Positions 5,434 to 57,148 of a stretch of DNA of 64,000 bases are shown here, piece after piece. The notes under the pieces are model-generated. The model was not told the DNA's origin and did no database searches. It saw only the letters and a list, made by a program, of their open reading frames with translations. This DNA is from a virus. Lineage: Duplodnaviria; Heunggongvirae; Uroviricota; Caudoviricetes. The translations under genes and the position numbers were made by a program. The stretch lies in the IMG/VR virus record IMGVR_UViG_3300025778_000009; one strand, given 5' to 3'. The stretch's first letter is position 1, and each line of letters starts with the position of its first letter.

Positions 5434-5958
5434 TTAGTTACCTATTTTTGCTAGTTTTTCTTGGCCGCGCATAAAGCTTGTTACACCAAGTATTGCTCCA
5501 AACGCTAAGTGTATTAAACCACCATTAGATAGAGTAAGACTCTGCCAGGCAGTATATGTGGTTTGTATACCTAATCCTTTGAAGAAAACAGGTAAGAACA
5601 TAGTAATTAATGGAAAGCCTACGAAGTCCATAAAGCAAATAGCCATATAAAGCCAGCCCATTGCTGGTCTCCAATAAGCCTTTACCCAATGTTCTTCTTC
5701 TTTTTCTATCTGATGTTCTGTAACTTCTTTATCAATAGAAGTTTCAGCTAAACCAACTGATGCTTCAGCTTGTGCTGTGGCTTGAATAGAAGCCATTTGT
5801 ACAGTTTGCTGAGCCATCACTGATGATGCGGCTGAATTATTATTGTTATTTACATCAATCACAGTAACTGCAGGAGCAGGTGTGGGTGCTGCAGCAGGTG
5901 TTGGATCAACAGTAGGTGTTGATGTATTATCTGATGTTTTTGATTTAAGCAAAGCCAT
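5434..5958 (-). CDS. 3TM holin-like membrane protein
   Basis: WRPAMGWLY...GAILGV...RGQEK pattern; TM helices. Confidence 0.6.
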   Translation of the reverse strand: MALLKSKTSDNTSTPTVDPTPAAAPTPAPAVTVIDVNNNNNSAASSVMAQQTVQMASIQATAQAEASVGLAETSIDKEVTEHQIEKEEEHWVKAYWRPAMGWLYMAICFMDFVGFPLITMFLPVFFKGLGIQTTYTAWQSLTLSNGGLIHLAFGAILGVTSFMRGQEKLAKIGN

Positions 5959-6002: not shown

Positions 6003-6452
6003 ATGACAAAAAAAATTATATTCACAGCATTTACATTGCTATTTATGAGTTATGATGTTTATGCATCTGAGATGGTTTATCAATTCAGTAATCCTTCGTT
6101 TTCTGGTCAAGGATGGTCTTCTCATGTATTGACTATAGAGAATGAAGAATACACTCGTCAGCAAGCAAACATTGTTGCACAGCAACAAGCGGCCGCTGCT
6201 GCTGCAGCTGCTGCAAATAATACAAATCTTGCAAAATTTTTAAATAATCTTGAGAGTAGAATATATGCTACTCTTTCTCAACAAATTGCTTCTCAATTGT
6301 TTTCCAATCAAGGAGCTACTTCTGGTCAATTTACAGTTGCTGGTAGCACTATACAATGGAATTCTGATGGAAGCAATGTTAACATTTCAATTACCGATGC
6401 CAATGGCATTACAACCAACATGACCGTACCTTTAGGAAGTTTAGCGATATGA
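6003..6452 (+). CDS. csgF: Curli assembly protein CsgF-like
   Basis: Signal peptide then YQFSNPSFSG; adjacent to csgG; late promoter 5977-5984. Confidence 0.75.
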   Translation: MTKKIIFTAFTLLFMSYDVYASEMVYQFSNPSFSGQGWSSHVLTIENEEYTRQQANIVAQQQAAAAAAAAANNTNLAKFLNNLESRIYATLSQQIASQLFSNQGATSGQFTVAGSTIQWNSDGSNVNISITDANGITTNMTVPLGSLAI

Positions 6453-7264
6453 AAAAATATATTATTGTTTGTTTGAGTTTATTATTAGCTGCATGTTCTA
6501 CTACAGAGGATTTACATAAGAATATAGAGACAAATGCTGATAAGGCTTTACCTCTCTATCCATTGAAAAAAAGACAAAACGAATTGTTTAATTTTGGACC
6601 TTTAGATGGTCCTAAAATTCCTATTGCAATCTATAAATTTAATGATTTGACTGGACAGAGAAAACCAAATTCTAACTTTGCTGATCTAAGTACTGCAGTC
6701 ACTCAAGGTTCTGAAGGTTTTTTAATTAAATCTTTACAGGATGTAGGCAGAGGAACTTGGTTCACTCCTGTCGAAAGAGTAGACCTTGATAATCTAGTTA
6801 AAGAAAGACAGCTTATTAGATCACAAAGAGAACTGTATGAAGGTAAAGAAGCCAAGCCTCTAACACCTCTCGTTGTTGCAGGAATCATGGTTGAAGGTGG
6901 AATTGTTGGTTATGATTCCAATCTTCTTTCTGGCGGTATAGGTGCCAGAATGCTTGGTATTGGTCTAACACAGCAGTACAGAAAAGATGAAGTTACCGTA
7001 GTTTTAAGATTGATATCGATAAATACTGGAGAGATAATGTTGTCTACAGGTGCAACCAAGACAATCTACAGTGTTGGTGTCAATGGAAACCTTTTGCAAT
7101 TTGTAGATGCTGGCACAACAGCCGTAGAATTTGAAACTGGTGCCAATGTAAACGAACCTACTACATATGCTATTAGAGTTGCTATAGACCAAGCAGTGTT
7201 ATCAATGGTCAAAGAAGGTATGGATAAACAACTATGGAAAGTTAAGAAAGACGAAAAGAGGTAA
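6449..7264 (+). CDS. csgG: Curli secretion channel CsgG
   Basis: Lipobox LLAAC; FNDLTGQRKP, STAVTQG, WFTPVER, KERQLIR, GGIVGYD. Confidence 0.9.
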   Translation: MKKYIIVCLSLLLAACSTTEDLHKNIETNADKALPLYPLKKRQNELFNFGPLDGPKIPIAIYKFNDLTGQRKPNSNFADLSTAVTQGSEGFLIKSLQDVGRGTWFTPVERVDLDNLVKERQLIRSQRELYEGKEAKPLTPLVVAGIMVEGGIVGYDSNLLSGGIGARMLGIGLTQQYRKDEVTVVLRLISINTGEIMLSTGATKTIYSVGVNGNLLQFVDAGTTAVEFETGANVNEPTTYAIRVAIDQAVLSMVKEGMDKQLWKVKKDEKR

Positions 7265-8999: not shown

Positions 9000-9340
9000 A
9001 AAAACTTATTCTTTTATGTTTGTTAATTTGTACACCAGCAAATGCAGGAAGTGCAATTATTAATCTTTCCGGAAACAATAATGTTTTAAATCTTGCACAA
9101 AGAGCAGACACAAATGTGATGTTTAGTGCCACAGATCCTAATGCAAGTAACAATGTTTATTCTATCAAGCAATCTGGTGGTGGAGAACATACTGCTAGCA
9201 TTGACATAGAAGGTAATTTCCAAAACTATAACTTCTATCTTTCACAAAATAGCTCTCAGAATCTTTCAATATCAATTCAGCAAATTTGCAACAATCCTGT
9301 TTGCTCTCCTTCATCACCATATGTATTTAATCAGTATTGA
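8996..9340 (+). CDS. Small secreted curlin-like protein
   Basis: Signal peptide; SGNNN/Q repeats. Confidence 0.5.
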   Translation: MKKLILLCLLICTPANAGSAIINLSGNNNVLNLAQRADTNVMFSATDPNASNNVYSIKQSGGGEHTASIDIEGNFQNYNFYLSQNSSQNLSISIQQICNNPVCSPSSPYVFNQY

Positions 9341-9341
9341 C

Positions 9342-11381
9342 ATGAAAAATTTTCTAATATCTCTTGCAGTTGTTATTGTTTTAATAGCAATAAAAGTATC
9401 TAATCCACTTCCAGTACAATTATTGGAAATGAAATCGCTTGATTTGCTATTGACAAGTAAACCACAAACAACCAACGAAGATATAGTTATTGTTGAAGTG
9501 TCAGACAAGACTCTCGAAAAACTTGGTCAATGGCCATTAGATAGAAAAGTGTTTGCAGATAAGATTATGCAATTAAGAGAATATGGCGCAGGTCTTATTG
9601 TGATGCCTGTTTTATTTTCTGAACCTGATAGAGCCGGTCATGATAAAGAGTTAGCTGATGCTATTGGAACAGGAGGAGTTATAATTGCTCAAACACCAAC
9701 AAATCAAAACAAAAAACCAGATGCCGTTCGTCGTGGCTTTGCTGCTATTGGTGATAATCCTGCCCCTTATGCTTATAGCTGGAATGGAGCTGTTAGCCCT
9801 ATCAAAATGCTTGCAGATGCCGCAGCAGGGGTCGGCGTTGTTGCTTCCACACCTGAGGTGGACGGCGTTGTACGACGTATGCCAATGGTCGTTAACATAG
9901 ACGGAAATTTATATCCATCATTACCGTTAGAAACAATAAGAGCTGCTACAGATGACCCATCGTTTCAAATTAAAACAGATGATGCTGGGATTGCTGCTGT
10001 TCGCATCCCCAAGTTTAATACTATTAATACTGATAAAAATGGTAGAATATGGATTGATTGGTCTTCCAAGTATAAAACTGTTGATTTCCTGGAAGTAAAG
10101 AAAGAAGATGTAGAAGGTAAGTCTGTTATCATTGGTTTATCTGCATCAGGAATAGGCAATATAATTGCTACACCTCGTGGTGAACAATTTGCACACACCG
10201 TTCAAGCCAATGCTCTTATCTCTGTGTTCAACGGAACAACACCTGTAAGATATTCTTATGCACCAGCATTAGAACTTCTTGCTACAATTCTTTTAACTAC
10301 TCTTATAATATTAGTAATACCTAGAATACCGGTGTTAACTACTATTCCTGTATTAGTTATTTTAACTGGCGGTTTGATATATCTTCCTAAGTATCTTTTT
10401 ACTAGCAATTTAGAACTTTGGGATGTATCATATATTTTATTCTCAACAGTAATTACATACGGTACTGTAATTGCCCAGAGAATGTTAAGTGAGTATTTAC
10501 AGAAATTACAAATTAAAAAGCAATTTGGTACTTACTTATCTCCTGCAATGGTAGAAAAGTTACAAAAGAATCCTGAGTTGCTTCAACTCGGAGGAGAGTC
10601 TCGTGAGCTTTCAATTATGTTTACAGATGTTCGCGGTTTTACTGCTATTAGCGAGCATTACGGAAACGACGTTCAGGGGTTAACTAAAATAATGAATCGC
10701 TACATGACGGCGATGACAGCTTCTATATTAGAAGAAAATGGTACATTAGACAAATATATTGGTGATGCTCAAATGGCATTTTGGAATGCTCCTCTAGATG
10801 ATCCAAATCATGCCAAGCATGCAGTTAAAGCTGCTTTGAAAATGTTAGGAAAGTTAGATGAATTTAATAGAGAAGTTAGTGAAGAAGGTGTACCGCCTTT
10901 TGGCATGGGTCTTGGGATTAACACTGGGACCGTTGTTGTTGGTAACATGGGCAGCACTCAGCGTTTTGACTATACTTGTCTTGGGGATAGTGTCAATCTT
11001 GCTTCAAGACTAGAAGGTCAGTCAAAGAACTACGGTGTTCTATTAATCCTAGGACCTGAAACAGCTAAACAAGTTCAGGATGAATACAGAGTAATTCAAT
11101 TAGATACAATTGCTGTTAAGGGTAAGAAAGAAGGTGTAGATATCTATACTGTTCTAAATAATGCCGATTGGGCAAAGAGTCAAGTCATAACTCATAATAA
11201 ATTTTTAGAAATATATCGATCAGGTGATTGGGATCGTGCTATTTCATATGCAACAGATCTTAGAAGATGTTTTAATAAAAAACTAGATCATTATTATGAA
11301 TTAATGATCGAGCGTATTGAAGATTATAAGATTAATCCACCCAAGAACTGGGATGGTGTTTACAGAGCAACGAGTAAGTAA
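9342..11381 (+). CDS. CHASE2-domain class III adenylate/guanylate cyclase
   Basis: GQWPLDR, DGVVRR; TM helices; MFTDVRGFT, DKYIGDA, GDSVNLASRLEG. Confidence 0.9.
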   Translation: MKNFLISLAVVIVLIAIKVSNPLPVQLLEMKSLDLLLTSKPQTTNEDIVIVEVSDKTLEKLGQWPLDRKVFADKIMQLREYGAGLIVMPVLFSEPDRAGHDKELADAIGTGGVIIAQTPTNQNKKPDAVRRGFAAIGDNPAPYAYSWNGAVSPIKMLADAAAGVGVVASTPEVDGVVRRMPMVVNIDGNLYPSLPLETIRAATDDPSFQIKTDDAGIAAVRIPKFNTINTDKNGRIWIDWSSKYKTVDFLEVKKEDVEGKSVIIGLSASGIGNIIATPRGEQFAHTVQANALISVFNGTTPVRYSYAPALELLATILLTTLIILVIPRIPVLTTIPVLVILTGGLIYLPKYLFTSNLELWDVSYILFSTVITYGTVIAQRMLSEYLQKLQIKKQFGTYLSPAMVEKLQKNPELLQLGGESRELSIMFTDVRGFTAISEHYGNDVQGLTKIMNRYMTAMTASILEENGTLDKYIGDAQMAFWNAPLDDPNHAKHAVKAALKMLGKLDEFNREVSEEGVPPFGMGLGINTGTVVVGNMGSTQRFDYTCLGDSVNLASRLEGQSKNYGVLLILGPETAKQVQDEYRVIQLDTIAVKGKKEGVDIYTVLNNADWAKSQVITHNKFLEIYRSGDWDRAISYATDLRRCFNKKLDHYYELMIERIEDYKINPPKNWDGVYRATSK

Positions 11382-23858: not shown

Positions 23859-23957
23859 GTGGCGTATGGTGTAATGGTAGCACAGGAAGTCCGAGACGCC
23901 TTAGGTGGAGTAGGCATTCAAAAAGCCAAGAGCAGTTCGATCCTGCTGCGCTGCACA
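23859..23957 (+). ncRNA. tRNA-like RNA with expanded anticodon region, no CCA
   Basis: D arm GTGT-AATGGTA-GCAC, T arm AGCAG-TTCGATC-CTGCT and acceptor pairing; about 35 nt replace the anticodon arm. Confidence 0.5.
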
Positions 23958-23964
23958 AAGTATT

Positions 23965-24048
23965 GGAGGTATGCGAGCAAGGTGCTCAAAGAGTCTTGAA
24001 AACTCTGCCACCGCAAGGTTGATGGTTCGATTCCTTGTACCTCCGCCA
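23965..24048 (+). tRNA. tRNA-Ser(TGA), atypical D arm and weak T stem
   Basis: GGAGGTA/TACCTCC, G73, long variable arm, CCA. Confidence 0.75.
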
Positions 24049-24052
24049 ATAT

Positions 24053-24201
24053 TGCAGGTGTGGAAACCTGTATATCACTAGCATTGATGTACCGAAGTAA
24101 ATGCTAGGTATAGTGGGCAGCCACTGGAGTCTGCATTGTCGGTCGTACCCGCAGTCCTATAATCTGTCAACGCGAAGATTGACACTGGAAGGAGTAACCA
24201 G
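24053..24201 (+). ncRNA. Multi-hairpin structured RNA
   Basis: TGCAGGT/ACCTGTA, CTAGCATT/AATGCTAG, TGTCAA/TTGACA, CTGG/CCAG; GC-rich, no ORF. Confidence 0.45.
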
Positions 24202-24212
24202 AACGAGTTTTT

Positions 24213-24306
24213 GGGTGAGTTGATGCTACGGCGTGTGCATCCCCGGACTGTAAATCCGGTCCCTATGTGGTAAACAATGTTGGTTCGACTCCAACCTCAC
24301 CCACCA
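24213..24306 (+). tRNA. tRNA-Tyr(GTA), extended D stem
   Basis: Cloverleaf, long variable region, CCA. Confidence 0.85.
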
Positions 24307-24400
24307 AAGATTTCAGTTGCATTATTATGCGATGTATCGTATTATAATAATGTACTGAAACGGACATTGTGTCCACCTTTTATAATATGGAGAAGTGAAA

Positions 24401-24658
24401 ATGACTAATACAACTCGCGTACTTACAGCTCTTATGACTGGTGAAGAATTGACTGCAAAGCAGATCTCAGCACGTTACGGCATTGCAAATGCTCGTGCAA
24501 CTATCTCTGCTCTTCGTTCAGAAGGTTATGCAATCTATCTTAACGCTCGTAAGGACACTAAAGGTCGTGTAACTAACAAGTATCGTCTTGGAACACCTAC
24601 TCGCAAGATCATTGCAGCTGGTTACAAGGCACTTGGCGCTGAAGCATACGGCGCCTAA
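24401..24658 (+). CDS. Small HTH-like protein
   Basis: LTAKQISARYGIANARATISALRSEGY..YRLGTP. Confidence 0.65.
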   Translation: MTNTTRVLTALMTGEELTAKQISARYGIANARATISALRSEGYAIYLNARKDTKGRVTNKYRLGTPTRKIIAAGYKALGAEAYGA

Positions 24659-24681
24659 TAGCTAGGTCCCATCTCGGATGT

Positions 24682-24711
24682 AAAGAGGGGCTTAGCGGCC
24701 CCTCTTTTTTT
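24682..24711 (+). terminator. Rho-independent terminator
   Basis: AAAGAGGGGC-ttagcg-GCCCCTCTTT-TTTT. Confidence 0.8.
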
Positions 24712-26553: not shown

Positions 26554-26629
26554 GCTGGAATAGCTCAGTTGGTAGAGCAACGGTTTTGTAAACCGTAGGT
26601 CGCGAGTTCGAGTCCCGCTTTCAGCACCA
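26554..26629 (+). tRNA. tRNA-Thr(TGT)
   Basis: Canonical cloverleaf. Confidence 0.95.
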
Positions 26630-29971: not shown

Positions 29972-30046
29972 GACCCTATGGCAGATTGGTTATGCAGGCG
30001 CCTCTAAAACGCTGTGAAGCAGGTTCAATTCCTGTTAGGGTCACCA
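29972..30046 (+). tRNA. Amber suppressor tRNA (anticodon CTA)
   Basis: GACCCTA/TAGGGTC-A-CCA; loop CT-CTA-AA; C31-A39 mismatch. Confidence 0.8.
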
Positions 30047-30065: not shown

Positions 30066-30920
30066 ATGAAAAATTGGTTAAAATTAACATGGCATTTGTT
30101 TAAAACATGGATCATAGTTAAAATTTGGGCTTTTAATAACCCTAAGCTTAAAAAACAATATTTTGAAGAACAGTGGCAAAAGAGAGCCATGAAGTTACGG
30201 GTTGATTGCATTACTAAACAACAGGCATATATTGATAAACAAAAAAATCCAGATAAATACTTTGATAATGGTAGTTGGTTTATTGGTGTTATTCCTCACG
30301 ATTGGCTTGATAGGATTAACATTGTGATTGAAAGACAAAACAAAAAGGAAGACAAGCAATGAAGAATTTCATCGCCTAGACTTACAGACCCCCCTAAATT
30401 ATTCCGTTGATTTTAATTGAATACTATCTTAAATTAACAATAACGGAGTAATAAAATGTCTATAGAATTAAAAATTAAATCAAAACATCTTGCACTAGAA
30501 CCTGTTATCATTCGTAAAGAAGAACATAAACTTCTTAAGCAGATTAAACATTACAGACAGTATCATCAAATTGGTTCTGCGAGTTTATTTGATTGTTATA
30601 AAGATCATCCTAATCTTTATAAGTTGTATGGTAAGCATGCCAATCTTAGCAACCATCGCAAGCAAGATGTTCGTAATGAAGCAAGAGCAACTTTCCTGGC
30701 AAGAGCATATATTAAAGGTATGCCTTATAAGGTAGTTGAGAGTAAGACTAGTGATGACGGGTTGTGTAACGCTGTCTCATCTAGTCTTGTACGAATGGTA
30801 ATGAAGTATGGTACAGTAAGATACAATTCGGATATGGATAGATCTGTGGTACCTTTTAAGACAATAAAGACTGCTGAAGCCAAAGCATGGGAAGACATTA
30901 AAAAGTGGCTTGAGCAGTAA
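30066..30920 (+). other. Two hypothetical ORFs (30066-30362, 30456-30920)
   Basis: ORF track; second has SD GGAG. Confidence 0.6.
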
Positions 30921-30929
30921 AAAGAATAT

Positions 30930-31004
30930 GGGCGGTTAGCTCAGCGGAAGAGCAGTGGTTTTACACGCCGAAGGTCGTAGGTTCGATCCCTACACCGCCC
31001 ACCA
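30930..31004 (+). tRNA. tRNA-Val(TAC)
   Basis: Cloverleaf, CCA. Confidence 0.9.
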
Positions 31005-31009
31005 TACTT

Positions 31010-31159
31010 TAGGATAGATGCAGCAAAAATTTATAAAACCGAGGCCTCGTGCCTCTCCGCACAGACTAACTTATGTTAGTCCTCGTTATGGAGTACATAA
31101 CTAGTGCAGTTTGACTGAGTCTGCACGATCAAATAACAAAAACATATCAAGCTATCCTG
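31010..31159 (+). ncRNA. Y-RNA-like cassette 1 (four internal hairpins)
   Basis: TAGGATAG/CTATCCTG stem + ATG + CAGCA. Confidence 0.75.
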
Positions 31160-31169
31160 ATAAAAATTT

Positions 31170-31284
31170 TAGAGTGATTTCAGCAAAAAAAATTGGCATA
31201 TAAAGCCTAAGATTGGTTCGACTCCAATATTCGTCACGTTTCAGACGAGTCCGCCTCGTGGTGAGGCAAACAAAATTCACTCTG
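31170..31284 (+). ncRNA. Y-RNA-like cassette 2 with permuted tRNA domain
   Basis: TAGAGTGA/TCACTCTG + TTT + CAGCA; T arm, loop-closed acceptor, D-like arm. Confidence 0.8.
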
Positions 31285-31291
31285 TTGATTT

Positions 31292-31404
31292 TAGGTTGTT
31301 TACAGCATATTTTTGCGCTTGTAGTGCCGGGTCGTGGGTTCGAATCCCACCGGGAGCTCCTTGCTTCTGTAGCTCAGTGGGTAGAGCACGTAAAAGACAA
31401 CCTG
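31292..31404 (+). ncRNA. Y-RNA-like cassette 3 (YrlA-like permuted tRNA domain)
   Basis: TAGGTTGT/ACAACCTG + TTA + CAGCA; GTGGG-TTCGAAT-CCCAC, CGGGAGC-tcctt-GCTTCTG, TA-GCTC-AGTGGGTA-GAGC. Confidence 0.85.
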
Positions 31405-31504
31405 TTGATTTTATTGAGAAAAAACTAACCTATTGAAATATAACGATTTTTTTATAGAAAAAACTCAATGATTTCAAGGTCATATTTCTGTTGACTTTAT
31501 ATCC

Positions 31505-31896
31505 ATTCTATCCTATTATAATAATATAAGGAATCGATGAACACTATTATTGTATTACGAGAGGTTAGCTATGAAGCTTTATAGGATCCGTTCTGGAAAC
31601 CGTTGGTATGTTGGACAACGAGTCTCTGAAACCTTTGGCAAGGATGAAGATGCTGGCGCCATTTTCAGGAATCGTGAAAAAGCAGAGCGTGAGATCCGTT
31701 CTCATTCCAAGAACTCTAACGGATACGATTTCACCGATCCTAAGATGGCATGGCGCAAGAAGGAACATGATCGCTGGACTAACGCTGTCGTGGTTGAATA
31801 TGATCTTGTGAGGATTGTTAACTAGATCGTTACAAAATTTCGGTTGGCAGAATCCAAAATGGTGCTATTCTATCCTATTATAATAATATAAGGAAT
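31505..31896 (+). repeat. 30-nt direct repeat (31505-31534, 31867-31896) in tandem early promoters
   Basis: ATTCTATCCTATTATAATAATATAAGGAAT occurs twice. Confidence 0.8.
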
Positions 31897-32584
31897 GGAG
31901 ATAAAGATATGTCCGACGCCGATATAATCAACGCGAGAATCAAGCTTTTCAAAAAAAGAGTCTCTCAGCTCTGGGCAAAGCATATACTACACCAACGTTC
32001 TACCGCACTTGGCAAACCCAGTCAGTTTGTGCTCTCACAGAAGCGGAGATTGATGAGGTCAAGGCTTATAGGGATGAGATCCCTGCCCTAGAGCAACTTC
32101 TCGCGAAGAAGGATTAATGATATGAAGCCGTTGATATTTATTGGTGTAGTTGTTGTTGGTGTTGTGAGTCTCGCCGTTGCAGCTGGTATATATGATCAGA
32201 ATCAATGGAATGATTTTTCCGCAGCTCACGATTGCAAGTTGGTTGGTCATAAGAACTCAACTGTTGGCTATGGTTTGACACCGTCTGGCAAAATGGGCAC
32301 GGTAATCCTTCCTGAAGAAAATTCTTACCTTTGCGATGATGGTGTAACATATACTCGTTAATTATATAGGAAATGGAGATAGGGATATGAAAAAGCAATA
32401 TCGCATCTTTGTTATGGAATCAGAACGGGGATGGGGTCAGAGATATGAACAGTGGGATTACGATACGTATGAAGAAGCAAAAGCAGCCATTCATCGAATC
32501 AATTCTGATAATACTGCACCAACTGCTCCTGATTGGTACATGCAAGCAGAAGATCGTGTTGAGGTAGTCGAAGTTAAAGTATAA
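31550..32584 (+). other. Block of small early ORFs (31550-31825, 31909-32091, 32122-32361, 32387-32584) splitting the RNA array
   Basis: ORF track; promoters and SD sites. Confidence 0.6.
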
Positions 32585-32591
32585 AAAGTTT

Positions 32592-32648
32592 TAGGGTCAG
32601 TTCAGCAACCAATTTTGCACGCCTGAATAGCAAAAAAAGTTGACCCTG
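32592..32648 (+). ncRNA. Y-RNA-like cassette 4
   Basis: TAGGGTCA/TGACCCTG + GTT + CAGCA. Confidence 0.75.
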
Positions 32649-32655
32649 TTGATTT

Positions 32656-32718
32656 TAGGATCTCTACAGCATAATCGCCGTAAGGCACTTTTTTTTGGAG
32701 AAAGCAGAGTAGATCCTG
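32656..32718 (+). ncRNA. Y-RNA-like cassette 5
   Basis: TAGGATCT/AGATCCTG + CTA + CAGCA. Confidence 0.75.
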
Positions 32719-32725
32719 TTGATTT

Positions 32726-32785
32726 TAGATTCAGTTCCGCAACAAAAACAAATTTTGTATCGAAAACAAAACCAAGTTGAATCTG
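32726..32785 (+). ncRNA. Y-RNA-like cassette 6
   Basis: TAGATTCA/TGAATCTG + GTT + CCGCA. Confidence 0.75.
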
Positions 32786-32806: not shown

Positions 32807-34240
32807 ATGACTACATTTGCAAACGCCGTTAAGAATCAGTCTGCACGTACTGAGAACGGTATGATGGCTCGTGCATCTACTGCTAACGCTCTTACTGATC
32901 TTTTCTTTAAGATTGGTGCAATGCGTGGCAAGAACGTAATTCCAGATTGGACTGCTGCTCGTGTTCAAGATGCTAATATCGCTGGTCGTATTGCATTGTG
33001 GGCTCGTGACGTTCGCGGTGGTGCTGGTGAGCGTAAGATCTTCCGTGACATCCTTTTGGATCTTGTTAATACAGATCAAGATCGTACACGTGCAATGATG
33101 AACAAGGTACCTGAGCTTGGTCGTTGGGATGACTTGCTCGTTTTTGTAGGTACTGATCTTCAAAACGAAGCGTTTGAAATGATCCGTCAAGCTCTTAATG
33201 AAGGCAATGGTCTCTGTGCTAAGTGGATGCCTCGTCAAGGTGAAGTAGCTGCAAAGCTTCGTACTCACTTTGGTTGGTCTCCTAAGTATTACCGTAAGCG
33301 TTTGGTTGAATTGACTAAGGTCGTTGAGACTCAGATGTGTGCAAAGGACTGGGATAACATTAACTTCAATCACGTTCCTTCTGTTGCTTCTGCTCGTTAC
33401 AAGAAGGCTTTCTCACGTCACACTGAGAAGTATAAGGAATGGGTTATGAAGCTTGTTTCTGATAAGCCAGAAGAACGTGCAGAGGTTAAGGTCAACGCTG
33501 GTGCAGTATATCCATACGATGTATTGAAGGGTGTGATCGGTTCTTATGGCGTAGCTTACGACAAGTCTAACTTGGGTCATATTGTTGCACAATGGGAAGC
33601 GCTTCCTAACTATGTTGGTGATGCAAACATTCTTCCTCTTGTTGACGTATCTGGTTCAATGTCTTGTAAGGCTGGTGGTATTAACTCTAAGTCTCAGACT
33701 ACTTGTATGGAAGTTGCTGTATCTCTTGGTCTCTACCTTGCAGATAAGAACAAGGGTAAGTTCAAGGACACTTTCCTGACTTTCTCTGGTCGACCACAAT
33801 TGCTTAACTTGCAGGGTAATATCCTTGATAAGATCAAGCAAATGGTCTCTTCTGATTGGCAAATGAATACTGACTTGGTTGCAGCCGTTCAAAAGATCTT
33901 GAATGTTGCAGTTGAGAACAATGTTCCTCAAGAAGAAATGCCAGCAGTATTGTTAATCTTGTCTGACATGCAATTTGACCGTTGTGCACAGTTTGATGAC
34001 TCTGCTATGCAAATGATTGCACGTAAGTATTCAGAATTTGGTTATACAATGCCTAACATTGTGTTCTGGAATCTGAATGCTGCAGACAATGTGCCTGCTA
34101 AGTTCAATGAACAAGGTGTGGCTCTTGTGTCTGGCTTCTCACCAGCGATTGTCAAAGGTGTTCTCGCCGCTGATCTTGATAACTTTACACCAGAAGCTAT
34201 CATGCTGAAGACAATCATGGCCGAGCGCTACGATTACTAA
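32807..34240 (+). CDS. DUF2828-type Ro60/TROVE-like protein with C-terminal vWA domain
   Basis: RTENG, ARDVRGGAGER, GRWDDL, AKWMPR, VPSVA, MIDAS DVSGS, ILSDMQFD, VFWNL, VSGFSP. Confidence 0.85.
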   Translation: MTTFANAVKNQSARTENGMMARASTANALTDLFFKIGAMRGKNVIPDWTAARVQDANIAGRIALWARDVRGGAGERKIFRDILLDLVNTDQDRTRAMMNKVPELGRWDDLLVFVGTDLQNEAFEMIRQALNEGNGLCAKWMPRQGEVAAKLRTHFGWSPKYYRKRLVELTKVVETQMCAKDWDNINFNHVPSVASARYKKAFSRHTEKYKEWVMKLVSDKPEERAEVKVNAGAVYPYDVLKGVIGSYGVAYDKSNLGHIVAQWEALPNYVGDANILPLVDVSGSMSCKAGGINSKSQTTCMEVAVSLGLYLADKNKGKFKDTFLTFSGRPQLLNLQGNILDKIKQMVSSDWQMNTDLVAAVQKILNVAVENNVPQEEMPAVLLILSDMQFDRCAQFDDSAMQMIARKYSEFGYTMPNIVFWNLNAADNVPAKFNEQGVALVSGFSPAIVKGVLAADLDNFTPEAIMLKTIMAERYDY

Positions 34241-35426: not shown

Positions 35427-35927
35427 ATGCATAGACAACAAATGAATATCAATCAAGTAGCTGAGTTTATCAATGCTCAGTCTGCTGATACCAAGATTTA
35501 CATTGGTGGTGATTCAGAACGATTTCTAATAGACAATGTCTGGCATGCTGACTATACTCTTGCTGTTGTTGTTCACTATGGTGGCAATCGTGGTTGTAAG
35601 ATCTTTGGTGAAGTTGTTCGTGAAAGAGACTTTGATCAACAAAAAGACAAACCACGTATGCGACTTATGAATGAAGTAATGAAAATTGCTGATTTGTATT
35701 TGAAGTTAGCAGAAGTGTTGGAGGATCGTCATGTTGAAGTACATCTTGACATTAATCCAGATGAGCATCACGGTAGTTCTTGCGTTATCAATGAAGCAAC
35801 AGGATATATTCGTGGAATGTGTAATGTCGTGCCTTTGGTTAAGCCAAACGCTTTTGCTGCATCTTACTGCGCTGACCGATTGAAGGAAATTTTATATAAT
35901 CAAGAAAATACAAAAAAAGCTAGTTAA
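35427..35927 (+). CDS. RNase H-like YkuK family protein
   Basis: IYIGGDS, RLMNEV, EVHLDIN, KPNAFAASYCAD. Confidence 0.75.
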   Translation: MHRQQMNINQVAEFINAQSADTKIYIGGDSERFLIDNVWHADYTLAVVVHYGGNRGCKIFGEVVRERDFDQQKDKPRMRLMNEVMKIADLYLKLAEVLEDRHVEVHLDINPDEHHGSSCVINEATGYIRGMCNVVPLVKPNAFAASYCADRLKEILYNQENTKKAS

Positions 35928-37072: not shown

Positions 37073-37537
37073 ATGCAAATAGTAAAAGTAACAGGTTTTA
37101 AAAAACATTACGCATTTACCTATCTTATGAAGATAGAACATGCATGCTTTAACGGTGATTATATTACAAAAAAAGATTTTAAAACCAATTACGAAAGAAC
37201 TTTTTTTCTTTTAGACATTGATCAAAATATTATTGGTTACTATATGTGGTATCCTGAAAATGGTTATGCCTATCTTTACAGCCTTGCTATAGATAAATAT
37301 TATCAAGGTAATGGTTATTCAAAGCTAATGCTAGATCATTTTCTAGCCAATAGTGGGCATAATATACATTGCTTGCACGTAAAAGATATTAACGATAAAG
37401 CTAGACAACTTTATAAAAATTATGGGTTTATAGAATCTACAGTAGTAAATAATTTTTATGAAGATGGTGCTCCTGCAATAACAATGTACAAAAAGATAAA
37501 TGAAACACAAAATAGTCCACTTGTTTGGAAACATTGA
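37073..37537 (+). CDS. GNAT acetyltransferase (RimI-like)
   Basis: YSLAIDKYYQGNGYS, LHV...N.KARQLYKNYGF..FYEDG. Confidence 0.85.
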   Translation: MQIVKVTGFKKHYAFTYLMKIEHACFNGDYITKKDFKTNYERTFFLLDIDQNIIGYYMWYPENGYAYLYSLAIDKYYQGNGYSKLMLDHFLANSGHNIHCLHVKDINDKARQLYKNYGFIESTVVNNFYEDGAPAITMYKKINETQNSPLVWKH

Positions 37538-38186
37538 TGACTATGATCTACAAACATATCGATTAGATCTTGATCCAGAAGACACCAAAGAGAGTGAGAT
37601 TCTAGATAATGGTTGGTATGTTTTTAATGGTCGATGGATTGCTAATCGTCTTGTAAGGCTTGATCTTTCCAAATATACAAAAGAACCTAAACAGATTAAA
37701 GGCTATGAATTTGTCTTTAAAGAACGTTTAGATGATCATTCAGAAGTTGATAGGGTATTTCAAACCTTTATCAAGCTAAGAGGCCTCAGTCCAATTTACA
37801 GTGTAACTTGTGATCCTGAGAGAACTTCTTGGCTTTTAGTTTATAAAAATAACATTCTAGTTGCATTCACAAAGTTTACAAACTATGAAGGCGCATTAGA
37901 AAGTCAATTCACTGCCTGGGATTATTCAGAACCAAAAATATCTCTTGGTGTAAAGATAGTTGATTATGAAGTTATGCATGCCAGAAAAAAAGGTTATCCA
38001 TTTCTTTATATTGGGCCAGGTTATGGGGCAATAGCAGCTTATAAATCTAGATTTCAAGGCTTTGAATGGTGGACTGGCTCAGAATGGTCTAAGGATATCG
38101 ATAAATATGTTGAAGCTTGTAACAGAGATTCTACTATTAAGACTCTCGATGATTTAAATAGATTGTTTAACGACCCAAATGCATAA
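37500..38186 (+). CDS. ATE/Bpt-like aminoacyl-tRNA-protein transferase
   Basis: LDNGW, SLG...YE...A.KKGY.FLYIG...YKSRF. Confidence 0.65.
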   Translation: MKHKIVHLFGNIDDYDLQTYRLDLDPEDTKESEILDNGWYVFNGRWIANRLVRLDLSKYTKEPKQIKGYEFVFKERLDDHSEVDRVFQTFIKLRGLSPIYSVTCDPERTSWLLVYKNNILVAFTKFTNYEGALESQFTAWDYSEPKISLGVKIVDYEVMHARKKGYPFLYIGPGYGAIAAYKSRFQGFEWWTGSEWSKDIDKYVEACNRDSTIKTLDDLNRLFNDPNA

Positions 38187-49935: not shown

Positions 49936-50233
49936 TATGATCCGCGGATGGTTCATAGGTGATTTTGAACCATCCGTGTTTAAGACTAAAGATTTTGAAG
50001 TTGGCGTTCTTACTCATAAAAAAGGTGAAGAATGGCCAAAACATTATCATAAGATTGCTACAGAATATACCGTTTTGCTTTCTGGTTCAATGACCATTTG
50101 TGGTGAATTAATTGAAGCTGGAACTATTTTTATTTTAGAACCGGGTGAAGTTGCAGATCCAGTCTTTCATGAAGACTGTACAGTGATTGTAGTAAAAACC
50201 CCTAGCGTGATTGGAGATAAGTATGTCGTTTGA
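49913..50233 (+). CDS. Cupin-domain protein
   Basis: GWFIGDFEP, HYHKIATE. Confidence 0.7.
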   Translation: MLKEKLSNMIRGWFIGDFEPSVFKTKDFEVGVLTHKKGEEWPKHYHKIATEYTVLLSGSMTICGELIEAGTIFILEPGEVADPVFHEDCTVIVVKTPSVIGDKYVV

Positions 50234-51422
50234 TGCTTTTCGTGATAAATCTTCTTTAGATCCTCAAGAATACGTATTTGTAAAATATGAATTAGATAGC
50301 ACTGAAAGTGTTAAGAAGGCAGCTTGGGATCTAGCTATCGGTCAGAGTGTTGGTAATCCAAATGTTCGTAATGATTGGGAAACAGATGAGCTGTTTGAAA
50401 AACATAGTTGCTTGATTACTATGGTAGATGAAGAAAATAAATTAGCTGAAATAGCTTTTCCAGTTGAGAATACTAATTGGAAAGAAGATGGTATCTCTCA
50501 CTTACTTTGTCAGATTATGGGTGGTCAAACAGATATTGATCATATTATTAAGAGTCGTGTAATTGATATTGAAATCCCTGAATGTGTTAAAGCTTGGTTT
50601 AGGGAACCACGATTTGGATTTAAAGGTTATCGTGAGTATTTAAACCAATATGATAAACCTTTATTGGGTGGTATTGTAAAACCAAAGACAGGTATTAGCC
50701 CGCAAACTCTTCTTGAGATGGTTAAGCAAATGGTCGAGGGTGGTGTTGATTTTATTAAAGAAGATGAAATTCTTTCCAATCCCAACTTCTGCCCTCTTTG
50801 GCAACGTGTTCCATTGATTGCTGATTATCTAGCTAATTGTGGTCGAAAGGTTGCTTATCATTTTTGTATTAATAGCGATCCTCTATATGTTCTTGAAAGA
50901 GCCAAATATGTTGCTAAGCACAGCACTGAAAATTTAACATTAGGGGTTCATATTAATGTTTGGTCTGGACTTGGTGTTTACAATTCTATTCGTAAATTAA
51001 ATTTGCCTTTATTCATTCATTATCAAAAGAGTGGTGAAAAGACATTTACACATCCAAAGAATCCATTTGGTATTTCATGGCCTGTACTTTGTGAATTAGC
51101 AGGATTGTCTGGTGTAGATACTATTCATGCAGGTATGATCGGGGGGTATTCTTCTGATGATCCAGTAATGATGGAACAAGCTATTGCAAATCTTAATAAG
51201 TATGGGACGGTCCCATCATTATCATGTGGAATGCATCCTGGTCTTGTTAATCATGTAACTGAATTATTTGGTTCAGTTGATTATATGGCAAGTGTCGGTG
51301 GTGCTATTCATGGTCATCCAAACGGCACACTAGCAGGTGCAACGGCTATGCGTCAGGCTATTGATAAGACTTATGGGCCTGAATATGATGTAGCTATTGC
51401 TAAATGGGGTTTAGTAAATTGA
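50223..51422 (+). CDS. RuBisCO-like protein (form IV)
   Basis: GGIVKPKTG, GGVDFIKEDE, SCGMHPG, GGAIHGHP.G..AGA.AMRQA. Confidence 0.9.
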   Translation: MSFDAFRDKSSLDPQEYVFVKYELDSTESVKKAAWDLAIGQSVGNPNVRNDWETDELFEKHSCLITMVDEENKLAEIAFPVENTNWKEDGISHLLCQIMGGQTDIDHIIKSRVIDIEIPECVKAWFREPRFGFKGYREYLNQYDKPLLGGIVKPKTGISPQTLLEMVKQMVEGGVDFIKEDEILSNPNFCPLWQRVPLIADYLANCGRKVAYHFCINSDPLYVLERAKYVAKHSTENLTLGVHINVWSGLGVYNSIRKLNLPLFIHYQKSGEKTFTHPKNPFGISWPVLCELAGLSGVDTIHAGMIGGYSSDDPVMMEQAIANLNKYGTVPSLSCGMHPGLVNHVTELFGSVDYMASVGGAIHGHPNGTLAGATAMRQAIDKTYGPEYDVAIAKWGLVN

Positions 51423-57065: not shown

Positions 57066-57148
57066 GCGAACGTAGCCGAGGGGAGCTTCTACCTCCTTAG
57101 ACGTAACTGGAGCTGTAAATGGGGGTTCGAATCCCTCCGTTCGCGCCA
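57066..57148 (+). tRNA. D-armless tRNA-Arg(TCT)-like RNA
   Basis: GCGAACG/CGTTCGC-G-CCA; GGGGAG-CTTCTAC-CTCCTT; canonical T arm; only 7 nt between acceptor and anticodon arm. Confidence 0.7.

What the first reader, a model, noticed from the sequence alone, without database searches (positions are those of the whole stretch)
31170..31404. Two cassettes carry circularly permuted tRNA mimics (YrlA topology)
Seen: unit 3 reads T arm (GTGGG-TTCGAAT-CCCAC, 31334-50), an acceptor stem closed by a loop (CGGGAGC-tcctt-GCTTCTG), then a canonical D arm (TA-GCTC-AGTGGGTA-GAGC). Unit 2 has the same order (ATTGG-TTCGACT-CCAAT; ATTCGTC-loop-GACGAGT; GCCTC-GTGGT-GAGGC). There is no CCA end, so they cannot be charged. 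Known: this order is the hallmark of bacterial YrlA Y RNAs. This supports the Y-RNA reading of the array independently of the handle motif.
Basis: partly seen in the sequence, partly recalled or inferred. Interest (0 to 1): 0.75.

Follow-up and report, generated by a model that had tools for sequence, protein, structure and literature searches.

The report
Phage Y-like RNAs displaying permuted tRNAs
Two small RNA genes in a large uncultured phage each encode a tRNA look-alike whose parts are in rotated order and whose amino-acid end is sealed by a loop. They are held in a shared "handle" next to a gene for a Ro60-shaped RNA-binding protein, so they are probably that protein's partner RNAs, a phage version of Y RNA that is not catalogued.

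Summary
Unit 3 (31293-31403) has a T arm, a 7-bp acceptor stem closed by a 5-nt loop, U8-A9 and a canonical D arm. Unit 2 (31171-31283) is a reduced version of the same order. Rfam YrlA matches unit 3 below threshold (33.6 bits against 69). In 31 distinct related cassettes 97.8% of pairs hold (40-47% when slid), all 7 acceptor pairs covary, and the 15-48 tertiary pair covaries.

Unit 3 also keeps an anticodon-arm mimic. Rejoined at positions 26/27, ARAGORN calls it tRNA-Thr(UGU). So it is a whole permuted cloverleaf, not exactly YrlA, which lacks the anticodon loop.

Both units belong to six cassettes that share a stem plus UUCAGCAA handle. The ORF at 32807-34240 (DUF2828 + vWA) folds as Ro60 (pLDDT 91.6; top PDB matches are all Ro60/TROVE). 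In 63 of 70 related loci a cassette ends within 150 nt of that gene's start. The same handle design occurs beside DUF2828 genes in Felix O1 and mycobacteriophage Snenia.

Best reading: phage Y-like RNAs that present uncharged tRNA mimics. Binding and function are inferred, not shown. This scan has noted the same system on other DNA. I found no paper describing it.

The parts
30930..31004 (+). tRNA-Val(UAC). Its encoded CCA end lies 6 nt before the first cassette, so array 1 continues the tRNA cluster on the same strand.
   Evidence: ARAGORN and Rfam tRNA, 62.1 bits
31011..31158 (+). Cassette 1. Handle stem AGGATAG/CTATCCT, GCAGCAA motif, and a payload of four hairpins that is not tRNA-like.
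   Evidence: Fold z -3.4. R1 model 28.3 bits through the handle only.
31171..31283 (+). Handle AGAGTGA/TCACTCT plus UUCAGCAA. Payload: small hairpin 31195-31207, T arm 31212-31228, loop-closed 7-bp acceptor 31229-31250, D-like hairpin with a GG loop 31253-31267. A reduced permuted tRNA mimic.
   Evidence: R1 58.5 bits, E 6e-11. The 91%-identical orthologue in L002/L003 scores 70.8 bits.
31293..31403 (+). Handle AGGTTGT/ACAACCT plus UUACAGCA. Payload is a complete permuted cloverleaf: anticodon-arm mimic 31313-31329 (loop CUUGUAG), variable loop 31330-31333, T arm 31334-31350, loop-closed acceptor 31351-31369, U8-A9 31370-31371, D arm 31372-31387.
   Evidence: Rfam YrlA 33.6 bits. R1 110 bits. 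ARAGORN calls tRNA-Thr(UGU) after rejoining at 26/27 and nothing in the native order. Covariation.
32593..32647 (+). Cassette 4. Short payload, same handle (AGGGTCAGT/GTTGACCCT, UUCAGCAA).
   Evidence: R1 33.1 bits.
32657..32717 (+). Cassette 5. Short payload, handle AGGATCT/AGATCCT, UACAGCA.
   Evidence: R1 24.1 bits.
32727..32784 (+). Cassette 6. Short payload, handle AGATTCA/TGAATCT, UUCCGCAA. It ends 22 nt before the start codon of the Ro60-like gene.
   Evidence: Aligns end to end with Rfam Dicty_Class_I_RNA at 21 bits, below threshold.
32807..34240 (+). Ro60-like protein gene, 477 aa: PF11443 DUF2828 + PF25043 DUF7788, phrog_850 'RNA-binding protein'. Helical repeat ring plus a vWA domain with an invariant MIDAS motif (D280, S282, S284, T355, D387). 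The presumed protein partner of the cassettes.
   Evidence: AlphaFold2 pLDDT 91.6. Foldseek top 12 listed hits are all Ro60/TROVE, E 2e-9 to 2e-5, mostly TM 0.55-0.61.
35427..35927 (+). PF04308 RNase H-like ORF (166 aa). It recurs within 6 kb of the Ro60-like gene and is a possible effector. Its membership of the system is an inference.
   Evidence: Pfam E 1.4e-15. Homologue present in 30 of 83 loci, including KVP40 and BUCT-ZZ01.

Best explanation
Units 2 and 3 are two of six tandem small-RNA cassettes on the + strand. They are co-oriented with the tRNA cluster and with a Ro60-like (DUF2828 + vWA) gene.

Each cassette is closed by the same handle:
- a 7-10 bp stem with conserved A-U and G-C pairs at its base;
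- the motif U(U/A)CAGCA(A/U) just inside the 5' strand;
- an A-rich 3' inner strand;
- a conserved GUU just outside.

The handle is the likely docking site for the Ro60-like protein, as the Ro-binding stem is in Y RNAs.

The payload of units 2 and 3 folds into the L-shape of tRNA. The gene order is rotated and the acceptor end is sealed by a loop, so as transcribed the RNA has no 3' end at which an amino acid could be attached. Unit 3 is a whole cloverleaf, including an anticodon-arm mimic with a Thr-like UGU loop. Unit 2 keeps only the elbow (T arm plus a GG-loop hairpin) and the acceptor.

The particle would then work like Ro60/Y RNA. The handle holds the ring protein. The tRNA mimic recruits or decoys a tRNA-binding factor, such as a host nuclease, a modification or processing enzyme, or a tRNA-targeting defence protein. 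This would happen within the contest over tRNA and RNA repair between phage and host.

Shown here: the RNA structures, their conservation, the Ro60 fold, and the gene-RNA linkage. Inferred: protein binding to the handle, processing into separate RNAs, and the biological role.
For: Structure:
- establish the arms, the covariation and the tRNA tertiary signature.
- Re-permuted unit 3 is called tRNA-Thr(UGU) by ARAGORN. 18 of 32 related cassettes are callable after the same operation, with different anticodon-like loops: UGU, UAU, GAA, UGA, UCA, UUC.

Partner protein:
- DUF2828 + DUF7788 by Pfam, full-length phrog_850 'RNA-binding protein'.
- High-confidence model whose best PDB matches over the full length are Xenopus and human Ro60, D. 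radiodurans Rsr and Thermus phage phiLo Ro60.
- Invariant MIDAS residues.

Linkage:
- The cassette grammar gives 319 hits on the gene's strand against 40 on the other.
- 63 of 70 loci have a cassette ending within 150 nt of the start codon, and 69 of 70 have one within 1.5 kb.
- The same design occurs next to DUF2828 genes in Felix O1: four cassettes with AGACCNN-UUACAGCAA, one carrying a permuted tRNA mimic.
- It also occurs in mycobacteriophage Snenia: three cassettes with GGACNNN-ACAGCAA, one hitting Rfam YrlA at 39.3 bits.
- R1 also hits at 56 bits downstream of the DUF2828 gene in cyanophage BUCT-ZZ01 (L081); I did not read that sequence.

Precedent:
- Phage Ro60 with two Y-like RNAs upstream of its gene binds them and host PNPase (PMC12135203).
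- The Ro60-like gp130 of the Felix O1-like phage Bas63 counters the Ppl defence. Its authors guessed that Y RNAs hide among the tRNA genes (bioRxiv 10.1101/2024.10.10.617714).
- Neighbouring genes in other phages fit RNA repair: RtcB-type ligase, band-7/SPFH, RNA ligase 2.
Against: - There are no expression, end-mapping or binding data. Protein-handle binding rests on linkage and analogy alone.
- The protein is related to Ro60 only at fold level. A profile of the family reaches Ro60 chains at E about 0.05, and no TROVE Pfam hit was found.
- The handle lacks the GNCGAA/CGAA motif of YrlA and phiLo Yrl RNAs.
- Array 1 is separated from the gene by four small ORFs and a promoter-like site at 31491-31519. 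It may therefore be expressed with the tRNAs rather than with the gene.
- The anticodon-arm mimic of the window's unit 3 is weak: 2 Watson-Crick pairs, 2 G-U pairs and 1 mismatch.
- The covariation alignment was fitted to the model structure, which favours that structure.
Confidence: 0.7

Rival explanations
1. Unit 3 is a permuted tRNA gene that matures into a working tRNA-Thr(UGU). The handle brings positions 26 and 27 together for cutting and ligation. RNase P and 3' processing open the acceptor loop. This would resemble the permuted tRNA genes of the red alga Cyanidioschyzon merolae.
For: - ARAGORN calls the rejoined sequence tRNA-Thr(UGU) with a 7-bp acceptor.
- The acceptor loop begins UCC, close to N73-CC.
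- M. smegmatis YrlA is cut by RNase P and receives CCA (PMC4201824).
- RtcB-type or Rnl2-type ligases sit near DUF2828 genes in some other phages.
Against: - The same handle encloses payloads that are not tRNA-like, or lack an acceptor or an anticodon arm: cassettes 1 and 4-6 and unit 2.
- The break point differs between orthologous cassettes: 26/27, the anticodon loop, or the variable loop.
- The phage already has a standard tRNA-Thr(UGU) at 26554-26629.
- From my own knowledge, no bulge-helix-bulge endonuclease pathway is known in bacteria. No ligase turned up among the 27 window ORFs I scanned.
- The anticodon stem of the window copy has a mismatch and two G-U pairs.
Confidence: 0.06
2. After RNase P opens the acceptor loop and CCA is added, the cassette stays in one base-paired piece. 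It is then a chargeable, handle-tethered tRNA mimic, so 'cannot be charged' would be wrong.
For: - The acceptor is 7 bp in nearly all cassettes, with 95% of cells paired.
- Unit 3 has G1-C72, C2-G71 and a UGU loop. To my knowledge these overlap the bacterial ThrRS identity elements.
- There is a precedent in M. smegmatis YrlA (PMC4201824).
Against: - Acceptor loops vary from 1 to more than 60 nt with no conserved CCA.
- Most YrlA RNAs are not cleaved (PMC4201824; 10.1101/312249).
- Nothing here tests cleavage.
Confidence: 0.12
3. The cassettes are cis-acting elements rather than trans-acting partner RNAs. They could be processing or stability signals for the polycistronic tRNA transcript, or an autoregulatory leader of the Ro60-like mRNA. 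In that case the tRNA-like shapes would be decayed tRNA genes, or the T arm of one tRNA followed by the D arm of the next.
For: - Array 2 lies in the 5' leader of the gene, 22 nt from the start codon.
- Array 1 directly follows tRNA-Val.
- A true tRNA dimer in the window scores 36 bits with my model, so dimers can imitate the pattern.
Against: - The acceptor is a closed hairpin with 7 of 7 covarying pairs and only a short loop between T and D arms. It is not two tRNAs.
- Tertiary pairs are maintained by compensatory change, so the structure is not decaying.
- Handle and payloads are conserved across phages whose Ro60-like proteins are only 32-48% identical.
- An autoregulatory leader would be compatible with, and not exclusive of, the partner-RNA reading.
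Confidence: 0.1
4. The repeats are DNA-level elements, such as miniature mobile elements, recombination cassettes or promoters built on TTGATT, rather than RNAs.
For: - The design is modular: inverted repeats flank variable cargo.
- The junction motif CTGTTGATTTTA resembles a -35 box. It also occurs before ORFs at 30403 and 31487.
Against: - There is a strong strand bias (319 against 40; all 147 model hits on one strand).
- G-U pairs are frequent in the stems while other mismatches are rare. That fits RNA pairing and not DNA pairing.
- A -10 box at the right spacing is present at only one junction (my reading).
- The 3' flank varies (GTTGTT, GTTATT, GTTGAA) in other loci.
Confidence: 0.03

Closest known systems
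YrlA-type Y RNAs with Ro60/Rsr in bacteria and some phages (Rfam RF02553; Chen et al. 2014, PMC4201824; Wang et al. 2018, bioRxiv 10.1101/312249)
   Same: - Encoded beside a Ro60-fold gene.
- Terminal stem module plus a tRNA-like module in the order T arm, loop-closed acceptor, D arm.
- The tRNA tertiary pairs are conserved, including covariation at 15-48.
- Several different RNAs per locus.
   Different: - The protein is DUF2828, related to TROVE only by fold.
- The handle carries CAGCAA, not GNCGAA.
- The Rfam score is half the threshold.
- Unit 3 keeps an anticodon-arm mimic, which YrlA lacks.
- Cassettes come in head-to-tail arrays of up to about 8, with interchangeable payloads and several different permutation break points.
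Thermus phage phiLo Ro60 with Yrl1 and Yrl2 (PMC12135203; PDB 9KOP, 9L5Y)
   Same: - A phage-encoded Ro60-shaped ring with vWA.
- Two or more Y-like RNAs directly upstream of its gene.
- The RNAs have a 5'-3' stem flanking an internal loop with a conserved motif on the 5' side.
- This is among the best structural matches of the window protein.
   Different: - phiLo Ro60 is a TROVE-domain protein and its RNAs carry CGAA.
- My term search of that paper found no mention of a tRNA-like payload.
- Sequence identity to the window protein is about 16-17%.
Ro60-like gp130 of the Felix O1-like phage Bas63 (PhageMaP, bioRxiv 10.1101/2024.10.10.617714)
   Same: - The window protein is 37% identical to the Felix O1 homologue. 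I assume Bas63 gp130 is the orthologue of that Felix O1 protein but did not compare them.
- The gene sits beside a tRNA cluster.
- Its authors proposed that Y RNAs hide among the tRNA genes.
   Different: - That work gives a phenotype (it counters the Ppl defence) but identified no RNA.
- Here the candidate RNAs are identified, including four in Felix O1 itself, but there is no phenotype.
Class I RNAs of dictyostelid amoebae (Rfam RF01414; Kjellin et al. 2021, PMC7919456)
   Same: - About 60 nt, with a short covarying stem joining the 5' and 3' ends.
- The Rfam consensus shows the motif CUUACAGCAA next to the 5' strand, a variable interior, an A-rich 3' inner strand and a conserved CUG(U) at the 3' end.
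- One short window cassette and two of Felix O1 align end to end with the model.
   Different: - Scores are 20-21 bits against a threshold of 41.5, and the E-values (0.1-0.8) are not significant.
- The paper names an RRM protein (Rnp1A) as the direct binder and finds the RNAs only in Dictyostelia.
- I could not test whether dictyostelids have a DUF2828 protein.
- This is a resemblance only.
Circularly permuted tRNA genes of Cyanidioschyzon merolae and related algae (own knowledge; mentioned in PMC4238349)
   Same: The 3' half of the cloverleaf is encoded before the 5' half, and the acceptor ends are joined by a short linker.
   Different: - Those genes mature into ordinary tRNAs through a circular intermediate made by eukaryotic splicing enzymes.
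- Here there is no sign of such processing.
- Here the payloads are often incomplete tRNAs.
- Here a conserved handle and a Ro60-like gene accompany the cassettes.

Membership tests
YrlA (Rfam RF02553) | Reaches the curated gathering score of the covariance model (69 bits) | tested here: not met
   Unit 3 scores 33.6 bits, E 2e-5 in a 751-nt search. There is no YrlA hit for unit 2 and none at gathering threshold in the window.
YrlA (Rfam RF02553) | tRNA-like module in the order T arm, loop-closed acceptor stem, UA, D arm, with conserved T-loop and D-loop nucleotides | tested here: met
   It is fully met in unit 3. It is partly met in unit 2, which has CC instead of UA and a D-like hairpin with a GG loop.
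YrlA (Rfam RF02553) | Anticodon-stem-like helix links the tRNA module to the Ro-binding stem, with no anticodon loop | tested here: not met
   Unit 3 has a separate hairpin with a 7-nt loop in the place of the anticodon arm. It is joined to the handle by single strands. Some orthologous cassettes (L007, L008, L019, L034, L056) do have the closing helix.
YrlA (Rfam RF02553) | GNCGAA(N0-1)G motif on the 5' strand of the Ro-binding module | tested here: not met
   The handle consensus over 245 cassettes is U(U/A)CAGCA(A/U). No CGAA is conserved.
Y RNA (functional class: RNA partner of a Ro60-family protein) | Encoded next to a gene for a Ro60-fold protein (helical ring plus vWA with MIDAS) | tested here: met
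   Ro60 fold. MIDAS. Linkage in 63 of 70 loci.
Y RNA (functional class: RNA partner of a Ro60-family protein) | Physically bound by the Ro60-family protein | not testable with these tools
   Needs co-purification or gel-shift experiments.
Ro60 / TROVE (Pfam PF05731), for the neighbouring protein | Significant sequence match to the TROVE domain or to Ro60 chains | tested here: not met
   Pfam gives DUF2828 + DUF7788 only. phmmer against PDB finds nothing. A family profile reaches Ro60/TROVE chains only at E about 0.05.
Ro60 / TROVE (Pfam PF05731), for the neighbouring protein | Ro60 three-dimensional architecture | tested here: met
   Foldseek's top 12 listed hits are Ro60/TROVE structures over the full length, E 1.8e-9 to 1.8e-5, mostly TM 0.55-0.61.
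Permuted tRNA gene (algal type) | Re-permutation gives a complete cloverleaf | tested here: met
   Unit 3 becomes tRNA-Thr(UGU) by ARAGORN. Unit 2 gives nothing.
Permuted tRNA gene (algal type) | Processing to a linear, CCA-ended functional tRNA | not testable with these tools
   No RNA data. The arguments against are the variable break points and the non-tRNA payloads in the same handle.
Dictyostelid Class I RNA (Rfam RF01414) | Reaches the gathering score (41.5 bits) | tested here: not met
   21.0 bits for 32728-32785. 20.1 and 19.7 bits for two Felix O1 cassettes.

The most novel reading that the evidence does not exclude
The CAGCAA handle plus DUF2828 ring would be a widespread, uncatalogued ribonucleoprotein platform. 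On it, phages display a menu of uncharged tRNA look-alikes with different anticodon-like loops and different circular permutations. These would act as baits or adaptors against host factors that bind or cut tRNA, so that the particle shields or repairs the phage's own tRNA supply. The near-identical handle of the dictyostelid Class I RNAs would then mean those long-unexplained RNAs belong to the same ancient RNP type.
Probability: 0.25. Interest if true: 0.9.

Novelty: new variant of a known kind. Interest (0 to 1): 0.74.

Why it matters
Ro60 and Y RNAs are known from animals, about 5% of bacteria and a few phages. What the tRNA-like module of bacterial Y RNAs binds is still unknown.

This work assigns candidate partner RNAs to DUF2828, a much larger protein family that is mostly found in phages. 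It matched 711 of the 50,697 phage records searched, including Felix O1, KVP40, and Listeria, Campylobacter, Staphylococcus and mycobacterial phages.

The RNAs form a natural series. There is one constant handle, and the tRNA mimics are cut open at different places and either carry or lack an anticodon arm. Such a series is a ready-made experiment on which parts of tRNA shape the unknown effector reads.

It also offers a concrete lead for how the Ro60-like gp130 of Bas63 counters a defence system. Because Felix O1-type phages are easy to grow, the idea can be tested directly.

Tried and rejected
- Megablast of 3 kb around the finding against 50,697 phage records found nothing. The phage is uncultured and no whole genome is held.
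- I considered that CAGCA pairs with the downstream UGUUG as a pseudoknot or an inter-cassette hairpin. Variants CCGCA and CUGCA are not matched by changes in the 3' flank, so I rejected it.
- I considered that the junction CTGTTGATTTTA is a promoter -35 box. A suitable -10 is present at only one junction, and the flank varies in other loci, so I rejected it as a general explanation.
- My first regular expression for D arms missed most of them. I replaced it with a covariance model.
- Re-permuted unit 3 is no closer to the phage's own tRNA-Thr than to other tRNAs (68-71% identity), so it is not a recent copy.
- The supplementary tables of Chen 2014 are not held. I could not check which phages they listed.
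- The protein atlas added nothing beyond DUF2828 phage clusters.
- No RtcB, PNPase or other ligase turned up among the 27 window ORFs I scanned. Smaller ORFs were not scanned.
- I did not resolve whether the handle has a second short helix (UUAC/GUAA across a 3-nt bulge, seen in the window and in Felix O1).
Full report
**Setting**

The window comes from a large uncultured phage. The Ro60-like protein described below is on record on a 229-kb contig. No cultured phage matches the region at DNA level. The window carries 31 tRNA genes on the + strand and T4-like replication genes: family B polymerase, UvsX and a DnaB-like helicase. The finding lies just after tRNA-Val (30930-31004).

**The observation**

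Unit 3:
- T arm at 31334-31350.
- Acceptor stem of 7 pairs closed by the loop UCCUU at 31351-31369.
- U8-A9 at 31370-31371.
- Canonical D arm at 31372-31387.

Unit 2:
- T arm at 31212-31228.
- 7-pair closed acceptor at 31229-31250.
- A 5-bp hairpin whose loop GUGGU supplies the two G's that a D loop gives to the tRNA elbow (31253-31267).

Each unit folds as a multibranched structure closed by a long terminal stem. Rfam's YrlA model aligns end to end with unit 3. The T arm, acceptor and D arm align well, while the stems of the model do not. The score is 33.6 bits, E 2e-5 for the 751 nt searched, against a gathering score of 69. Nothing but tRNAs reaches threshold in the window.

**Related sequences**

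The 477-aa ORF at 32807-34240 brought in 80 related viral loci. BLASTN found orthologues of units 2 and 3 just upstream of that gene in about a dozen of them.

I aligned 18 unit-3-type cassettes and built a covariance model. It gave these results:
- 147 hits in 902 kb, all on the + strand.
- Unit 3 scores 110 bits and unit 2 scores 58.5 bits.

On the 31 distinct best cassettes:
- 97.8% of cells form standard pairs, against 40-47% when the 3' partners are slid by 1-3 columns.
- 19 of 23 pairs change on both sides.
- All seven acceptor pairs covary.

This alignment was fitted to the model, which favours the structure, but the gap to the slid controls is large.

The tertiary signature of tRNA is also kept:
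- U8 in 29/31.
- A14 in 28/31.
- GG in the D loop in 28/31.
- A UUCRANY T loop.
- The equivalent of the Levitt pair covaries: G15-C48 16 times, A15-U48 8 times, U15-A48 3 times.

Acceptor loops range from 1 to more than 60 nt, so the ORFs that overlap the units are not coding.

**A refinement**

In unit 3 and its closest orthologues, a hairpin with a 7-nt loop sits exactly where an anticodon arm should be. It is followed by a class-I variable loop (GGUC, AGGUC) and then the T stem.

The loops read CUUGUAA/G, CUGAAAA, CUUAUAA, CUUGAAA and AUUCAAA. In every case there is U at position 2 and A at position 6, and A at position 7 except in the window copy, which ends in G. The stems covary.

I joined the two halves of unit 3 in silico at positions 26/27. 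ARAGORN then calls the sequence tRNA-Thr(UGU), whereas it finds nothing in the native order. The anticodon stem of this copy is weak. After the same operation, 18 of 32 cassettes are callable.

Other orthologous cassettes are opened elsewhere:
- In the anticodon loop, with a closing helix. This is the true YrlA topology (L007, L008, L019, L034, L056).
- In the variable loop, giving the order T, acceptor, D, anticodon arm (L054, L063, L069).
- In the normal order D, anticodon arm, T, with the acceptor short or absent (L011:5697-5815, L014, L061:2427-2526, L067).

In every case the acceptor end is capped or missing. Selection therefore seems to act on tRNA shape without a chargeable end. Re-permuted unit 3 is not a recent copy of any tRNA in the window.

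**The handle and the array**

Units 2 and 3 are two of six cassettes: 31011-31158, 31171-31283, 31293-31403, 32593-32647, 32657-32717 and 32727-32784. The last one ends 22 nt before the start codon of the 477-aa ORF.

Over 245 distinct cassettes the consensus is UUUU, a stem AGGNUNN, one variable base, U(U/A)CAGCA(A/U), the payload, an A-rich run, the stem NNANCCU, then GUU.

A simple grammar for this layout finds 319 instances on the gene's strand and 40 on the other. In 63 of 70 loci with enough upstream sequence, a cassette ends within 150 nt of the start codon. In 69 of 70 there is at least one within 1.5 kb.

**The neighbouring protein**

Pfam gives DUF2828 plus DUF7788, and PHROGs gives a full-length match to phrog_850, 'RNA-binding protein'. 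A 75-sequence alignment shows an invariant DxSxS...T...D MIDAS motif.

The AlphaFold2 model is confident (pLDDT 91.6, pTM 0.90). Its twelve best listed PDB matches are all Ro60/TROVE structures matched over their whole length: Thermus phage phiLo Ro60, Xenopus and human Ro60, and D. radiodurans Rsr. E-values run from 1.8e-9 to 1.8e-5, and TM is mostly 0.55-0.61.

By sequence the relationship is not detectable. The protein is therefore a Ro60-fold protein of a family separate from TROVE.

**Breadth**

The family occurs in 711 phage records.

- Felix O1: four cassettes with the same design (stem AGACCNN, then UUACAGCAA) lie among the tRNA genes just after its DUF2828 gene. One carries a T arm, closed acceptor and D arm.
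- Mycobacteriophage Snenia: three cassettes (stem GGACNNN, then ACAGCAA) follow the 'Ro-like RNA binding protein' gene. The middle one hits Rfam YrlA at 39.3 bits.
- Cyanophage BUCT-ZZ01: one model hit of 56 bits, and one cassette found by the general scan just upstream of the gene.

Neighbouring genes in other phages include an RtcB-type ligase, band-7/SPFH proteins and RNA ligase 2. This fits the RNA-repair setting described for Ro-type proteins in jumbo phages (PMC7824862). A PF04308 RNase H-like ORF (35427-35927) lies within 6 kb of the gene in 30 of 83 loci, including KVP40.

**Comparison with what is known**

YrlA RNAs are described as circularly permuted tRNA mimics with a closed acceptor, no anticodon loop, and a GNCGAA motif in the Ro-binding stem. 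They are encoded next to Ro60 in more than 250 bacteria and phages (PMC4201824; 10.1101/312249).

Thermus phage phiLo Ro60 binds two Y-like RNAs encoded upstream of its gene, and also binds host PNPase (PMC12135203).

The Ro60-like gp130 of the Felix O1-like phage Bas63 counters the Ppl defence. Its authors guessed that Y RNAs hide among the tRNA genes (10.1101/2024.10.10.617714).

The present RNAs work like this kind but fail three defining tests of YrlA: the Rfam score, the motif, and for unit 3 the absence of an anticodon loop.

Full-text searches found no paper that links DUF2828 to such RNAs.

**A lead from earlier notes of this scan**

I checked this lead in part. The Rfam consensus of the dictyostelid Class I RNAs has a 6-bp terminal stem, CUUACAGCAA next to its 5' strand, an A-rich 3' inner strand and a terminal CUG. 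One short cassette of the window and two of Felix O1 align with it end to end, but only at 20-21 bits against a threshold of 41.5. This is a resemblance and not membership.

**Verdict**

The most likely mechanism is a Ro60-like ring docked on the shared handle, with the tRNA mimic recruiting or decoying a tRNA-binding factor. The docking and the role are inferences.

The same system has been noted by this scan in at least eight other genomes.

Noticed in passing
L083:5725-6557 (Salmonella phage Felix O1, NC_005282.1 about 23872-24704): Four unannotated cassettes lie between annotated tRNA genes, downstream of the DUF2828 'RNA-binding protein' gene. Each has the stem AGACCNN, UUACAGCAA, a payload and NNGGUCU. 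The fourth (6433-6557) carries a permuted tRNA mimic.
   Followed up: partly
L086:5975-6245 (Mycobacterium phage Snenia, KT281794.1): Three cassettes with the same design (GGACNNN, ACAGCAA) sit in the gap after the 'Ro-like RNA binding protein' gene. The middle one hits Rfam YrlA at 39.3 bits, below threshold.
   Followed up: partly
window 35427-35927 (+): A PF04308 RNase H-like ORF. A homologue lies within 6 kb of the Ro60-like gene in 30 of 83 loci and directly after it in KVP40. It is a possible nuclease partner.
   Followed up: partly
window 32728-32785; L083:5726-5792 and 5893-5950: Short cassettes align end to end with Rfam Dicty_Class_I_RNA (RF01414) at about 20 bits, below threshold. 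That family's consensus shares CUUACAGCAA, the terminal stem and the 3' CUG.
   Followed up: partly
window 57066-57145 (+): Rfam calls a tRNA here (34 bits) that ARAGORN did not report.
   Followed up: no
window 29972-30046 (+): A tRNA with anticodon CUA (an amber suppressor, labelled Pyl by ARAGORN), although ORFs read intact in the standard code.
   Followed up: no
window 37073-38186 (+): A GNAT acetyltransferase-like ORF overlaps an ORF with a weak match to the C-terminal domain of arginyl-tRNA-protein transferase (PF04377, E 2.5e-4). Both lie inside the tRNA cluster.
   Followed up: no
window 31505-31537 and 31867-31899 (+): A 33-nt direct repeat (97% identical) containing TATAAT-like and Shine-Dalgarno-like sequence precedes two small ORFs between the two cassette arrays. 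It is probably a repeated promoter and ribosome-binding-site unit.
   Followed up: no
window 50211-51422 (+) and 9321-11381 (+): A RuBisCO large-chain-like ORF (PF00016, E 1.4e-42) and a CHASE2 plus adenylate/guanylate cyclase ORF. Both are unusual cargo for a phage.
   Followed up: no
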